Positions 1,916 to 7,565 of a DNA stretch of 64,000 nucleotides are shown one piece after another (the stretch's first letter is position 1; each line of letters begins with the position of its first letter). The stretch comes from the human T2T-CHM13v2.0 reference genome, Homo sapiens. The position numbers were made by a program, and so were the translations under genes. Where the stretch lies: assembly GCF_009914755.1 (NCBI RefSeq), contig NC_060938.1, one strand, 5' to 3'. The notes beneath the pieces were generated by a model. It ran no database searches, was not told the DNA's origin, and saw only the letters and a list, made by a program, of their open reading frames with translations.

Positions 1916-2123
1916 TCACACCTCCCTTATTCCTCTAACTGGGACCCTTGTGCTGTGGAGCTCTGGTGAATGGTAAGAGGCAGATGGTCTCACAGGAAGA
2001 GTGGCTCTTTTCTGGTAGGCTGTGGTTCCCATTACACCCACCAGGATTAGCAGCATTAGGCAGAGTCCCATGGACAGCCTTAGGTGGGTCATGGAGGGAT
2101 TATGGTCTGAAGTAACCAGCAAC
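1916..2123 (-). CDS. CIROP: CIROP exon 16 (transmembrane helix, short tail, stop)
   Basis: cctag|(K)[39 protein letters not shown]...GIREV*. Confidence 0.88.
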
Positions 2124-5100: not shown

Positions 5101-7565
5101 GCCTTGTAGAACAGTTCTCTCTAACTGCAGAAAGGGAAGAAGGCAGTACGAGGAGAGGAAAACTTAGGAAGGGTGAAGTAAAATTAGAAGGAAGGACGTT
5201 ATGAGATAGTGAATTTCCTCTGGTTGATGGTGGAAAGTCCTTAACCTCATTCCTCTCATTTACCACTGAATCCTGAGGGGCAGTCTCGCCATTTCTTGAA
5301 GAGCTGTCCAGAGAAACCCAAGGCATGGAGCAATTCATGTAATGTGGCCTAAGGACAAATGACAGCCCAGTAAGGGGGCCGAATTTGCAGCAGGATTGAC
5401 CAAACACTCTATAACCCCTCTGCCCAATCAGCTCTTCCTAGAGTTTGAGGCACCTTCTATTCCATCCTCTGTGGGTTCTTTGACTTAATGGGAAACTGAG
5501 TAACCTGGCCCCCTACCCTGCAACCTGTTTGCTTCTCCCTATTCATCATGCAGCAGTCACCATGACGATGTCACTGTGGCTGAGGCTGGGGCTGGTGAGA
5601 TGTTGGGCACAGTAGACAATGGTACCAGCGAGGGGCCTGTCTTCTGAGTCCAGCTGGCAGCAGGCAGCATAGGCTATGACAGAGGGCTGTGGATGGGCCA
5701 GGACAGGGTAGGGCCAGAAAGGAGAAAAATAGGGTAGCACAAGTAGAAGAAGTCCTCTGAAAATGGAGGACCAGGGGACTCTGCAGAACTCTGCAGGAGT
5801 GGTATCAAGGGATGGCTGTGGGTGGGGGTAGCCTTTACCCAAACGTTACTAGCATTCCCTAAGTTATCCCAAATAAGCACAACTTAATAAAAACTGCTTT
5901 TGGCTGGGCATGGTGGCTCACGCCTGTAATCCTGATACTTTGGGAAGCCAAGGTGGGCAGATTGCTTGAGCCCAAGAGTTTGAGACACAGCCTGGGCAAC
6001 ATGACAAAACCCCGTCTCTACAAAAAAAAATACAAAAAATTAGCCGGACATGGTGGTGCATGCCTGTAATCCTAGCTACTCAGGAGGCTGAGATGGGAGG
6101 ATCACCTGAGCCCAGGAGGTCAAGGCTGCGGTGAGCTGTGATTGGGCCGCTGTACTCCAGCCTGGGCAACAGAGTGAGACTGTCTGAAAACAAAAGCAAA
6201 ATAAAACAAAACAAAACAAAACAAAACAAAACAAAACTGCTTTTATGCTCCCTAACCCTCCTCATGAGATTTAAGATTGAGAGAGACAGCAGGGAAAGGA
6301 AATTTGATTTGAACTTCACCTCTTGGTGGCACTTGGAAGTGTGAGCAACTCGCACATACAGGAGAAAATCAGTGTTTTGGACCCCAGGCCCATCTGGCTG
6401 GACCAGTTGTGGGGGACCCTGCTCCGGCCACAAGGCATAACCGCGAAGATGGGTGTCAGGAATCTGGCAGGGAGTGAAATGTTGCATTAGCAGAGGGGCT
6501 GGAACAGTAGGAAATTGGGTATGAGGAGTAGGGGAGAATGAATCTCTTTGGTCTGTCTTTGTGTTATCTAGGCAGCTGGCTAGAATAGAGTTCTGCCCCT
6601 TCACCCCCAGTCTCTGATTTAATAAATTTTAGCAGGGAGAGGAGCTCAAGAATCTACATCGTTAAGCACACTAAGTAACTCTGATGGTGGTGGTCTTGGA
6701 ATGGTCATGGCAGGCTGCAGATCTCCAGATCCCTGAGACTGAGAGGTGAGCCTGCTCAGGATCCTGTCTTCCGTCCCCTTCTTCCCTGGTGTACTTATTT
6801 CTGGTTTTCCTCTCTTTACTATCTCTCTGCGTATCCCCCCACCACCCTTATTTTTTCAAGATTTCAGTGTTGTTGACTCAATCTCACCTTTGCCCCCAGG
6901 CAACTCTCTCCTTTGTATCCTGGGTTCAAGAGGCTGCACCTATAAGAATGAAGATCTGTAGGTGAGCTGAGGACATTTCTAGGTATCCCTGAAAAAGAAT
7001 TACATACATTGTCAACGACGTGAACTCACCTGTGGTAGTTTGGGCTATCTGGGTCTCCCCAGACAGCGTGGCAATACTGTGCAGGGTCTCGACTCAGAAG
7101 CAGGGGTCCTTGCACTGGAGGGACTTGATAAGAAGTCAGTTTCTCCCATATCTTGGAATTCCAGTTCTCTTTCTGGGCTGATCTTCCTCCCCTGGACCTC
7201 TCTGCTCCTCAACCCTCCCTGACACCTCTGTTCCCTCACTCACCTGCTAGAACAGCCTGGATTCGCTGAGTGGCCTCTCTCACTGCGGCCAGGGCTCGGG
7301 ATCCCCCTCTCATCCCTTCTCCCTCAGGATCCCAAGCTCCATCTGATATATGATCTCCTAGATAGCAGCTTTGGATTCGTAGGGGTTGAGGATCACGGGA
7401 GCTAGGGAGGGTGAGGGAGGAAGAGCGAGATTTTGAGGGGAGTTGGGAGAAAGGGGGCCTGAGAAGGCTCACAGACTTCTGTGTCTCATCATGTAGACAT
7501 CGGCTTGCAGCAACCCTGAGGACTAGTGGCGGCAGCAGCAGCAGCAGCAGCAGCAGCAGCAGCAT
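1916..7565 (-). CDS. CIROP: CIROP/LMLN2 leishmanolysin-like (M8) zinc metallopeptidase, 16 possible exons, 788 aa (730 aa without the two Alu exons)
   Basis: All junctions are GT-AG with compatible phases. Exon lengths 322+85+52+144+78+96+126+85+146+175+70+97+273+230+180+208 = 2367 nt. Motifs: signal peptide, [18 protein letters not shown], Met-turn SLMT, Cys-rich domains, TM helix. Confidence 0.92.
2192..2367 (-). mobile_element. Alu right-arm fragment
   Basis: T-run plus antisense right arm. Confidence 0.85.
2615..2906 (+). mobile_element. Alu (J-like)
   Basis: Dimeric Alu with A-rich tail. Confidence 0.85.
3137..3316 (-). CDS. CIROP: CIROP exon 15
   Basis: tttag|(R)[14 protein letters not shown]...NFTTQPS(K)|gtaaga. 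Confidence 0.88.
3485..3714 (-). CDS. CIROP: CIROP exon 14
   Basis: ttgcag|[16 protein letters not shown]...SKGGTG(R)|gtaaaa. Confidence 0.9.
3927..4199 (-). CDS. CIROP: CIROP exon 13
   Basis: ttcag|SECWKKENG...[11 protein letters not shown]...GRCYLHQC...[11 protein letters not shown]|gtgggt. Confidence 0.9.
4304..4400 (-). CDS. CIROP: CIROP exon 12
   Basis: cacag|(S)[32 protein letters not shown]|gtgagt. Confidence 0.9.
4477..4546 (-). CDS. CIROP: CIROP exon 11
   Basis: gcag|(G)[22 protein letters not shown](S)|gtgtgt. Confidence 0.87.
4727..4901 (-). CDS. CIROP: CIROP exon 10 (third zinc His and Met-turn)
   Basis: ctccag|[22 protein letters not shown]...[26 protein letters not shown](G)|gtgagg. 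Confidence 0.93.
4979..5124 (-). CDS. CIROP: CIROP exon 9
   Basis: ctgcag|(V)[26 protein letters not shown]...GVPLEEE|gtgaga. Confidence 0.9.
5264..5348 (-). CDS. CIROP: CIROP exon 8 (HEXXH zinc motif), absent from the ORF track
   Basis: ttag|[28 protein letters not shown](V)|gtaaat; HELLH at 5325-5339. Confidence 0.93.
5561..5686 (-). CDS. CIROP: CIROP exon 7
   Basis: cacag|[26 protein letters not shown]...SDIVM|gtgact; AYA..CQ...DRP.AG is an M8 motif. Confidence 0.92.
5922..6017 (-). CDS. CIROP: CIROP Alu-derived cassette exon B (Alu left arm, 96 nt, phase 0-0)
   Basis: ttttgtag|[32 protein letters not shown]|gtgagc; open and frame-preserving. Confidence 0.55.
6106..6183 (-). CDS. CIROP: CIROP Alu-derived cassette exon A (Alu right arm, 78 nt, phase 0-0)
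   Basis: ttttcag|[26 protein letters not shown]|gtgatc; open and frame-preserving. Confidence 0.55.
6320..6463 (-). CDS. CIROP: CIROP exon 4
   Basis: ccag|IPDTHL...[11 protein letters not shown]...KCHQE|gtgaag; NTDFLLYV is a leishmanolysin-family strand. Confidence 0.9.
6759..6884. repeat. Diverged direct duplicate, copy 1 (CIROP intron 3)
   Basis: Aligns to 7598-7726 (ggatcctgtcttccgtccccttg/c ... ttattttttcaagattt ... tgttgttgactca). Confidence 0.9.
6888..6939 (-). CDS. CIROP: CIROP exon 3
   Basis: ttatag|(R)[17 protein letters not shown]|gtgaga. Confidence 0.88.
7030..7114 (-). CDS. CIROP: CIROP exon 2
   Basis: ctccag|(V)[27 protein letters not shown](R)|gtgagt. Confidence 0.9.
7244..7565 (-). 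CDS. CIROP: CIROP exon 1 (signal peptide, cysteine switch, prodomain)
   Basis: ATG at 7565; [27 protein letters not shown]...IQAVLA; donor G|gtgagt, phase 1. Confidence 0.92.
7533..7562 (-). repeat. (CTG)10 coding microsatellite encoding the poly-Leu signal peptide
   Basis: Ten perfect cag units on + directly adjoining the start codon. Confidence 0.95.

What the first reader, a model, noticed from the sequence alone, without database searches (positions are those of the whole stretch)
1916..7565. Intact leishmanolysin-type membrane metalloprotease hidden in small exons (CIROP/LMLN2)
Seen: the catalytic exons (HELLH at 5325-5339; SHWE and Met-turn in 4727-4901) are missing from the ORF track, yet all exons splice GT-AG into one open frame. 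The product has a signal peptide, SRCLHDE (compare the GP63 HRCIHD cysteine switch), the zinc site, Cys-rich domains and a single TM helix with a short tail rather than a GPI signal. Knowledge: this matches CIROP, a late-annotated gene of the ciliated left-right organiser module (with MMP21, DAND5, PKD1L1) that is mutated in heterotaxy. It is the most notable system in the window but it is already described; to my knowledge its substrate is unknown.
Basis: partly seen in the sequence, partly recalled or inferred. Interest (0 to 1): 0.8.

Follow-up and report, generated by a model that had tools for sequence, protein, structure and literature searches.

The report
Human CIROP gene, with two Alu exons

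Summary
The 16 RefSeq coding parts on the minus strand (1916-7565) all have AG/GT borders and join into one open frame of 788 aa. Neither catalytic exon appears among ORFs of 60 aa or more.

Family membership is tested. Exon 4728-4901 alone scores 36 bits against Pfam Peptidase_M8, whose cut-off is 21. Ape orthologues score 96-108 bits. A model of the gorilla orthologue matches leishmanolysin 1LML at Z 21.1. Orthologues named CIROP/LMLN2 occur in mammals, amphibians, lungfish, coelacanth and fishes. No bird or reptile is among the 120 rows listed. The gene and its role are in print, so it is already known.

RefSeq exons 5 (6106-6183) and 6 (5922-6017) lie inside one antisense Alu. They add 58 aa, including 3 Cys, to a loop of the catalytic sheet. 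121 of 127 database proteins lack this insert, among them gorilla, gibbon, marmoset and a partial human entry. It diverges faster than the rest of the protein. Whether the working human enzyme carries it is open.

The parts
7244..7565 (-). Coding exon 1 (aa 1-107): start codon, signal peptide, start of the propeptide
   Evidence: ATG at 7563-7565, donor GT; hydrophobic aa 1-24.
7506..7565 (-). Signal peptide (aa 1-20). Its Leu run is encoded by a perfect CTG repeat.
   Evidence: KD 2.6; period-3 repeat at 7532-7564, 11 copies, 100% matches.
7485..7505 (-). SRCLHDE, a cysteine-switch-like motif (aa 21-27)
   Evidence: Cys in 119 of 120 aligned rows, His in 111, Asp in 103. The GP63 motif HRCIHD/HRCVHD is quoted from a paper passage.
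7030..7114 (-). Coding exon 2
   Evidence: AG/GT borders, in frame.
6888..6939 (-). Coding exon 3
   Evidence: AG/GT borders, in frame.
6320..6463 (-). Coding exon 4 (aa 154-201). It ends in the strand FLLYVRV and the segment KCHQE.
   Evidence: 48 of 48 residues identical in apes; aligns to 1LML residues from about 104.
6106..6183 (-). Coding exon 5 (aa 202-227), taken from the right monomer of an antisense Alu
   Evidence: 7SL-like hit at 6043-6188 on the + strand; absent from 121 of 127 database proteins.
5922..6017 (-). Coding exon 6 (aa 228-259), taken from the left monomer of the same Alu
   Evidence: (7SL-like hit at 5903-6020 on the + strand).
5895..6244 (+). Alu element (dimeric 7SL-derived SINE with an A-rich tail), antisense to CIROP
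   Evidence: 27 other places in the window align over 260 bases or more at 70-80% identity; two Metazoa_SRP-like monomers; (AAAAC)x10 at 6187-6237.
5561..5686 (-). Coding exon 7 (aa 260-301): strands of the catalytic sheet
   Evidence: weak M8 match to profile positions 179-210..
5264..5348 (-). Coding exon 8 (aa 302-329), holding HELLHALGF at 5313-5339
   Evidence: profile positions 220-237. H, E, H and G invariant in 121 of 121 aligned rows.
4979..5124 (-). Coding exon 9: the insert between the HExxH helix and the third His
4727..4901 (-). Coding exon 10 (aa 379-436): third zinc ligand (SHWE, 4875-4886) and Met-turn (4848-4850)
   Evidence: Peptidase_M8 36 bits, E 4.3e-9. His and Met align with those of 1LML. 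SHWE in 123 of 123 aligned rows.
4477..4546 (-). Coding exon 11
4304..4400 (-). Coding exon 12 (Cys-rich)
   Evidence: invariant Cys columns.
3927..4199 (-). Coding exon 13: equivalent of the GP63 C-terminal domain
   Evidence: weak M8 match to profile positions 436-499. second matched stretch.
3485..3714 (-). Coding exon 14: end of the GP63-like part. From about 3612 downwards, start of a predicted juxtamembrane alpha/beta domain.
3137..3316 (-). Coding exon 15: most of the predicted juxtamembrane (SEA-like) domain
   Evidence: pLDDT 76-89. SorCS2 Z 10.7, EpCAM Z 9.8.
1916..2123 (-). Coding part of exon 16: TM helix (2015-2086), 32-aa tail (1919-2014), stop (1916-1918)
   Evidence: a C-terminal hydrophobic 19-mer in 68 of 72 orthologues.
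1712..1717 (-). AATAAA, 16 nt before the annotated 3' end at 1696
   Evidence: Read.

Best explanation
Window 1696-7634 (minus strand) is the known human gene CIROP (earlier name LMLN2).

It encodes a type I membrane zinc endopeptidase of the leishmanolysin (M8, metzincin) family. In order, the parts are:
- a signal peptide;
- a propeptide that begins with a conserved Cys motif;
- a three-domain GP63-like ectodomain, with zinc held by the two His of HELLH and the His of SHWE, Glu306 as the catalytic base and a Met-turn below the metal;
- a predicted small alpha/beta juxtamembrane domain;
- one TM helix and a 32-aa cytoplasmic tail.

What is shown here: gene structure, open frame, family membership, catalytic residues, topology signals and orthology.

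What comes from papers (passages only): the protein sits on cilia of left-right-organiser sensor cells. [quoted passage not shown] Biallelic loss causes heterotaxy.

What is inferred: latency by a cysteine switch, and that proteolysis of an unidentified ciliary or extracellular substrate is the step that relays flow. The preprint's authors speculate about the PKD1L1 ectodomain.

Caveat on the annotated product: the 58 aa from exons 5 and 6 are an exonised Alu. I think it somewhat more likely than not that the active enzyme is the 730-aa form that skips them. Both exons are phase 0 and multiples of 3, so skipping keeps the frame.
For: Gene structure and identity:
- 16 exons, all AG/GT, one 788-aa frame.
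- exon 10 is 100% identical to proteins named CIROP or LMLN2 in Homo, Pan and Gorilla.
- 721 of 729 residues identical to gorilla outside the insert.

Family membership:
- exon 10 alone passes the Pfam M8 cut-off (36 against 21 bits). Three further exons give weak matches in the same order along the profile.
- full-length bonobo and gorilla proteins score 96 and 108 bits.
- an orthologue profile against the PDB finds only 1LML (E 1.4e-18), with HExxHxxGFSG, the third His and the Met aligned.
- the gorilla model against 1LML gives Z 21.1, with 349 residues aligned over model 52-543 and chain 100-564.
- HExxH in 121 of 121 rows, SHWE in 123 of 123, the propeptide Cys in 119 of 120.

Topology:
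- only an N-terminal and a C-terminal hydrophobic segment.

Distribution and function:
- orthologues from mammals to ray and teleosts.
- (passages): function, disease link and phyletic loss.

Alu caveat.
Against: - The joined human protein itself could not be given to the family, fold or structure tools. Whole-protein scores come from ape orthologues 99% identical to it, and only single exons of the window were scored directly.
- Both structure models are mediocre (mean pLDDT 62.2 and 63.5). They are below 50 around the third His and the Met-turn, so the zinc-site geometry is not shown by them.
- Exon 1 gave no Pfam match. The link between SRCLHDE and the GP63 cysteine switch therefore rests on motif likeness and conservation only.
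- No expression data could be examined.
- The primary paper (Szenker-Ravi 2022) is not held.
- All 17 frog rows carry Leu at the Met-turn column, so that residue is not strictly required in this family.
Confidence: 0.95

Rival explanations
1. The 788-aa protein of the selected RefSeq transcript, Alu insert included, is the physiological human enzyme. The 58 aa would be a tolerated, primate-specific surface loop.
For: - The hub table lists both Alu exons in the selected transcript NM_001354640.2. The only exon it names from the other transcript is 7030-7123.
- Both exons have AG/GT borders with long pyrimidine tracts and are in frame.
- Models of bonobo (the cluster that also matches the window product), Cebus and Aotus carry an open insert at the same place.
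- In the bonobo model the flanking strands 187-194 and 265-272 are kept and the insert is a separate low-confidence excursion.
- The insertion point is a loop that is 5 residues shorter still in 1LML.
Against: - 121 of 127 database proteins have nothing there. These include gorilla, two gibbons, Piliocolobus, marmoset, Saimiri, three strepsirrhines and a partial human entry.
- The Pfam match runs straight through the exon 4/7 junction in gorilla (profile 160 onward) but starts only after the insert in bonobo (profile 178).
- Between human and Cebus, 12 of 56 insert residues differ, against 8 of 177 in the catalytic core and 63 of 726 elsewhere (Fisher p 3e-4 and 7e-3). This fits little or no constraint.
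- The insert adds 3 Cys to a disulfide-rich secreted domain.
- Outside CIROP its only relatives are 73 Alu-type junk models from one monkey genome.
- Gene predictions in other primates may copy the human model, so they are not independent.
Confidence: 0.4
2. The human locus is a decaying or non-catalytic copy, that is, a pseudogene or pseudoprotease.
For: - The gene is lost in several amniote lineages (passages).
- An Alu has entered the annotated coding sequence.
- The whale row is marked 'LOW QUALITY PROTEIN'.
Against: - The frame is open through all 16 exons.
- Every catalytic residue is intact and identical to orthologues.
- The product is 99% identical to gorilla.
- Papers report human heterotaxy from biallelic loss (passages).
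Confidence: 0.02
3. It is the paralogue LMLN (invadolysin), or some other M8 gene, and not CIROP.
For: Many database rows carry the generic name 'leishmanolysin-like peptidase'.
Against: - The best rows are named CIROP or LMLN2 and are 98-100% identical in apes.
- The hub annotation places CIROP at exactly these exons.
- A C-terminal TM helix is shared by 68 of 72 orthologues.
Confidence: 0.01

Closest known systems
CIROP / LMLN2 (ciliated left-right organizer metallopeptidase), vertebrate orthogroup
   Same: It is this gene. The exon coordinates equal the RefSeq model, and the product is 99% identical to ape proteins of that name.
   Different: The human and bonobo reference proteins carry 58 Alu-derived residues that nearly all other orthologue models lack.
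Leishmanolysin GP63 of Leishmania major (PDB 1LML), Pfam PF01457 / MEROPS M8
   Same: HExxHxxGF, a distant third His, the Met-turn, and the three-domain fold (Z 21.1). A Cys motif in the propeptide resembles HRCIHD.
   Different: - About 24% identity over the aligned residues.
- Anchored by a TM helix with a 32-aa tail instead of GPI.
- An extra predicted juxtamembrane alpha/beta domain.
- Its role is developmental signalling, not parasite surface protease activity.
Exonised antisense Alu elements in human coding genes
   Same: Both exons are cut from one antisense Alu. Their 3' splice sites follow the T-rich antisense of the A-rich tail and of the linker. That such exons are usually alternative, with low inclusion, is recalled knowledge and was not tested here.
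   Different: Here both arms are used as two separate exons, 88 nt apart. Both are in frame and sit in the selected reference transcript of a disease gene, inside its catalytic domain.
SEA-like / ferredoxin-like juxtamembrane domains (SorCS2 membrane-proximal domain, EpCAM and Trop2 C-domain, IA-2 and phogrin ectodomain)
   Same: The predicted beta-alpha-beta-beta-alpha-beta unit just outside the membrane matches at Z 10.7 to 7.5, rmsd 2.8-3.2 over 87-98 residues.
   Different: There is no sequence-family match (Pfam finds only M8). The evidence is a prediction on the gorilla orthologue only, and the region is missing in 7 teleost rows of 72.

Membership tests
Peptidase M8 (leishmanolysin), Pfam PF01457 | Profile match above the curated cut-off | tested here: met
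   window exon 4728-4901 alone scores 36 bits (cut-off 21), E 4.3e-9. Exons 7, 8 and 13 give weak matches in the same order along the profile; bonobo 96 bits, gorilla 108 bits.
Peptidase M8 (leishmanolysin), Pfam PF01457 | HExxH zinc motif followed by xxGF | tested here: met
   HELLHALGF at aa 305-313. H, E, H and G in 121 of 121 aligned rows; aligned to HEMAHALGF of 1LML.
Peptidase M8 (leishmanolysin), Pfam PF01457 | Third His ligand far downstream of HExxH, and a Met-turn | tested here: met
   His385 and Met396 align with the His and Met of 1LML. His in 123 of 123 rows; Met in 110 rows and Leu in 17 (all frogs).
Peptidase M8 (leishmanolysin), Pfam PF01457 | Three-domain GP63 fold | tested here: met
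   gorilla orthologue model against 1LML, Z 21.1, 349 residues, rmsd 7.5; bonobo model, Foldseek E 5.9e-14, the only match at E 0.001 or below. These are proxies 99% identical to the window product, and the models have mean pLDDT 62-64.
Peptidase M8 (leishmanolysin), Pfam PF01457 | Propeptide cysteine switch | tested here: inconclusive
   The motif SRCLHDE is present and its Cys is conserved in 119 of 120 rows. Exon 1 has no Pfam match, that part of both models is below pLDDT 50, and zinc chelation cannot be tested here.
CIROP orthogroup | Closest relatives are proteins annotated as CIROP or LMLN2 | tested here: met
   721 of 729 residues identical to gorilla CIROP outside the insert.
CIROP orthogroup | C-terminal TM helix with a short tail (not GPI) | tested here: met
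   aa 730-757, then 32 aa; 68 of 72 orthologues have a C-terminal hydrophobic 19-mer.
CIROP orthogroup | Present in taxa with a ciliated organiser; absent in birds, reptiles and even-toed ungulates | tested here: inconclusive
   no bird or reptile among the 120 listed of 203 hits, and the only cetartiodactyl is a low-quality whale row. 83 hits were not shown and candidates were capped at 8000. The loss is stated in passages.
CIROP orthogroup | Expression in the organiser and a role in laterality | not testable with these tools
   Papers only (passages).
Alu (7SL-derived primate SINE), for 5895-6244 | Dimer of 7SL-like monomers with an A-rich linker and tail, about 300 bp, in many copies | tested here: met
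   two Metazoa_SRP-like hits on the + strand (E 7e-15 and 2e-12, both below the gathering score, as expected for a derived repeat); 27 other copies of 260 bases or more in the window; (AAAAC)x10 tail.
Alu (7SL-derived primate SINE), for 5895-6244 | Insert absent at the same place outside primates | tested here: met
   Protein level only. No non-primate row has the Alu peptide; two (mink, cotton rat) have unrelated filler there. No genomic DNA of other species was examined.

The most novel reading that the evidence does not exclude
The reference (selected RefSeq) human CIROP protein may not be the working enzyme. Its exons 5 and 6 are an exonised Alu that puts 58 fast-evolving residues, with three extra cysteines, into a hairpin of the catalytic sheet. 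The active form in the human organiser would then be a 730-aa skip isoform that the hub's RefSeq table does not list.

If so:
- truncating variants in those two exons would be benign for heterotaxy;
- residue numbering in clinical reports is offset by 58;
- inclusion of the Alu exons could be a primate-specific way to lower CIROP activity.

I found no paper that holds both 'cirop' and 'alu'. The primary paper and its supplements could not be read, so this may already have been noticed there.
Probability: 0.45. Interest if true: 0.4.

Novelty: already known. Interest (0 to 1): 0.2.

Why it matters
CIROP is a recessive heterotaxy gene and part of the flow-sensing module of the left-right organiser, and its substrate is still unknown. 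The confirmation adds nothing new about the gene itself.

The practical point is the Alu origin of two coding exons of the reference transcript. It bears on three things:
- how variants in those exons are read in patients;
- which cDNA should be used in rescue and substrate-trapping experiments;
- the numbering of catalytic residues.

The predicted SEA-like juxtamembrane domain and the Leu in place of the Met-turn Met in frogs are small leads for people working on the enzyme.

Tried and rejected
- One search failed on a frame slip for one exon. It was corrected.
- Exons 1, 2, 4, 11, 12 and 15 gave no Pfam match on their own, so single small exons are mostly too short for the profile. The weak hits to Fibrillin_U_N, TMP_3, FOLN, Lectin_N and TarH in that call are all below their cut-offs, and I treat them as chance.
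- The primary paper (Nat Genet 2022) is not held.
- I compared structure models with and without the Alu insert to see whether the insert disturbs the fold. Mean pLDDT was 62.2 against 63.5 and pTM 0.46 against 0.54. The third-His region is below 50 in both models, so the comparison does not decide anything.
- An X-box-like (RFX) pattern, a possible mark of a cilia gene promoter, gave 8 hits in the window against 5.3 expected, with none near 7600-8400. I dropped this.
- I considered that the repeat at 6759-6884 and 7598-7726 might mark a duplicated first exon. The similarity stops at 131 bp and covers no coding sequence.
- No tree with LMLN paralogues was built.
- The Alu subfamily was not determined.
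Full report
**1. The observation**

I read 1600-7700 on the minus strand. In a script I joined the 16 coding parts of the annotated transcript from the window file. Every internal border is AG...GT. The 2367-nt frame is open and ends in a stop at 1916-1918. The product has 788 aa.

- HELLH is at 5325-5339.
- SHWE is at 4875-4886 and the Met-turn Met at 4848-4850. 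Both lie in exon 4727-4901.
- SRCLHDE is at 7485-7505, right after a Leu-rich N-terminal hydrophobic stretch.

Only two segments reach a mean Kyte-Doolittle value of 1.6 over 19 residues: aa 1-24 and aa 730-757. The second is followed by 32 residues that start QKR. That is the signature of a cleaved signal peptide plus a single-pass type I anchor.

In the default ORF list (60 aa or more, with a start codon) neither catalytic exon is present in its frame. From stop to stop they are 30 and 70 aa.

**2. What it is**

The joined protein may not be typed into other tools, so I scored single exons by reference.
- Exon 4728-4901 alone matches Pfam Peptidase_M8 at 36 bits (cut-off 21), E 4.3e-9, profile positions 288-339.
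- Exons 7, 8 and 13 give weak matches at profile positions 179-210, 220-237 and 436-499. These follow the same order along the profile.
- The same exon finds leishmanolysin 1LML in the PDB, with its His and Met aligned (E 0.019).

A protein search with that exon returned 87 proteins from 130 candidates. The top rows are 'leishmanolysin like peptidase 2, partial [Homo sapiens]' and 'ciliated left-right organizer metallopeptidase' of gorilla and bonobo, all 100% identical over the exon. Outside the insert discussed below, the window product equals gorilla CIROP at 721 of 729 compared residues and bonobo at 721 of 728. All the other splice junctions are thus confirmed at the protein level.

Further family evidence:
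- Full-length bonobo and gorilla proteins score 96 and 108 bits against Peptidase_M8.
- A profile of six orthologues finds only 1LML in the PDB (E 1.4e-18). HExxHxxGFSG, the third His and the Met-turn are aligned, and a second weak stretch falls in the C-terminal Cys-rich domain.
- AlphaFold2 models of the bonobo and gorilla proteins are mediocre (mean pLDDT 62.2 and 63.5).
- Even so, the only Foldseek match at E 0.001 or below is 1LML (E 5.9e-14).
- VIA-align gives Z 21.1 over 349 residues, rmsd 7.5, model 52-543 against chain 100-564.

In an alignment of the 127 proteins fetched:
- H, E, H and G of the zinc motif are present in 121 of 121 rows that cover it.
- SHWE is present in 123 of 123.
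- The Cys of the N-terminal motif is present in 119 of 120.

The GP63 cysteine-switch motif is given as HRCIHD or HRCVHD in a passage I read. The likeness to SRCLHDE is real. Exon 1 has no Pfam match, however, and that part of both models is below pLDDT 50, so the switch remains an inference.

**3. Distribution**

A profile search found 203 proteins at E 1e-10 or below among 8000 capped candidates, and 120 were listed. They include:
- placental mammals, marsupials and monotremes;
- caecilians, salamanders and many frogs;
- lungfish, coelacanth, sturgeon, a ray and teleosts.

One search also found a hemichordate row. No bird, turtle, crocodilian or squamate is among the listed rows. The only cetartiodactyl is a humpback whale entry flagged 'LOW QUALITY PROTEIN'. 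Because 83 hits were not shown, I call this consistent rather than proven.

**4. How it works**

From the sequence: a secreted-pathway zymogen, anchored by one helix, with a complete metzincin zinc site.

From papers (passages only):
- Cirop is needed downstream of leftward flow and upstream of dand5 repression.
- A tagged form localises to organiser cilia.
- It acts downstream of secreted Mmp21.
- CIROP variants cause recessive heterotaxy.

No substrate is named. The preprint's authors only speculate that Mmp21 and Cirop may inactivate Pkd1l1 through its ectodomain. My best reading is that CIROP is the ciliary membrane protease that converts the arrival of the flow-borne MMP21 signal into a cleavage event on the sensor cilium. 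The cleavage step and its target are inferred.

**5.

RefSeq exons 5 (6106-6183, 78 nt) and 6 (5922-6017, 96 nt) lie in the stretch 5895-6244, which NCBI masks as a repeat. The evidence that this is an Alu in plus orientation, antisense to the gene:
- It aligns over 260 bases or more with 27 other places in the window at 70-80% identity.
- It contains two 7SL-like monomers on the plus strand (Rfam Metazoa_SRP, E 7e-15 and 2e-12, both below the gathering score).
- It ends in an (AAAAC)x10 tail.

Each exon starts after the T-rich antisense of the tail or the linker and ends at a GT. Both exons are phase 0 and multiples of three, so skipping one or both keeps the frame.

Together they encode aa 202-259. 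These 58 residues, including 3 Cys, sit between the strand FLLYVRV...KCHQE and the strand PSVIAYAAC.

What the orthologues show:
- 121 of 127 rows have no residue there. A few of these are fragments.
- Among them are gorilla, two gibbons, Piliocolobus, marmoset, Saimiri, three strepsirrhines, all non-primates and the partial human entry.
- The bonobo cluster, Cebus and Aotus carry the Alu peptide.
- Colobus carries part of it, mixed with intron read-through.
- Mink and cotton-rat rows have unrelated filler.

Other evidence on the insert:
- Pfam's match runs through the exon 4/7 junction in gorilla (from profile position 160). In bonobo it begins only after the insert (profile position 178).
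- In 1LML the corresponding loop is five residues shorter than in CIROP without the insert.
- Between human and Cebus, 12 of 56 insert residues differ, against 8 of 177 in aa 260-436 and 63 of 726 over the rest. Fisher p is 3e-4 and 7e-3.
- A search with the insert alone found 76 proteins from 119 candidates. Three are CIROP rows. The other 73 are unrelated 'hypothetical', 'GVQW1' or 'C16orf89' models from one titi-monkey genome, that is, translated Alus.
- In the bonobo model the insert is a low-confidence excursion (pLDDT 23-37) and the flanking strands are kept. The models therefore do not say whether it harms the enzyme.

I conclude that the insert is a primate-specific Alu exonisation with no sign of constraint. 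Whether it is included in the transcripts that matter is open. I put the skip form as the active enzyme at about 0.45-0.6. A search for papers holding both 'cirop' and 'alu' found none. The primary paper and its supplements could not be read.

**6. Other anatomy**

Between the GP63-like part and the TM helix the gorilla model has a confident beta-alpha-beta-beta-alpha-beta unit (residues 562-668, pLDDT 76-89). Its best structural matches are:
- the membrane-proximal domain of SorCS2 (Z 10.7, rmsd 2.8, 96 residues);
- the C-domain of EpCAM and Trop2 (Z 9.8 to 8.5);
- the SEA-like ectodomain of phogrin and IA-2 (Z 7.5 to 7.0).

GP63 has nothing there. The region is covered in 65 of 72 orthologues, and the seven without it are teleosts.

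**7. Verdict**

The gene is already known, so interest is low. The Alu origin of two reference coding exons is the one point worth passing on.

Noticed in passing
window 4848-4850 (Met-turn codon); proteins P0104-P0125: All 17 frog CIROP rows have Leu instead of Met at the Met-turn column (GSILTAS). The other 110 rows have Met. Frog Cirop is reported to be functional (passages), so the Met is dispensable there.
   Followed up: partly
window 3485-3612 and 3137-3316, minus strand: A predicted juxtamembrane alpha/beta domain resembles the SorCS2 membrane-proximal, EpCAM/Trop2 C-terminal and IA-2 SEA-like domains (Z 10.7 to 7.0). It has no Pfam family and is missing in 7 teleost rows of 72.
   Followed up: partly
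window 6759-6884 and 7598-7726: A 131-bp direct repeat at 83% identity. One copy abuts the donor of exon 3 in intron 3; the other covers the CIROP 5'UTR and the sequence just upstream of the annotated start. Its meaning is unknown.
   Followed up: partly
window 7532-7564: The Leu run of the signal peptide is a perfect trinucleotide repeat of 11 units. The window has 10 Leu in a row, against 8 in gorilla and bonobo, 7 in gibbon and 5 in marmoset. It is likely to vary in length among people.
   Followed up: no
window 1696-3091: By the hub's table, the last CIROP exon (1696-2123, minus strand) lies wholly inside the long 3'UTR exon of C14orf119 on the plus strand (292-3091). The lncRNA LOC124907437 on the plus strand overlaps CIROP exons 1 and 3. 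So both ends of the gene have antisense transcripts.
   Followed up: no
protein P0044: A spotted-hyena CIROP orthologue of 721 aa is named 'ACINU protein, partial' in its source. This is probably a mislabel taken from the neighbouring gene ACIN1.
   Followed up: no
proteins P0128-P0200: 73 predicted proteins from one Plecturocebus cupreus assembly match the Alu-derived peptide. This suggests that its annotation was made without masking repeats.
   Followed up: no
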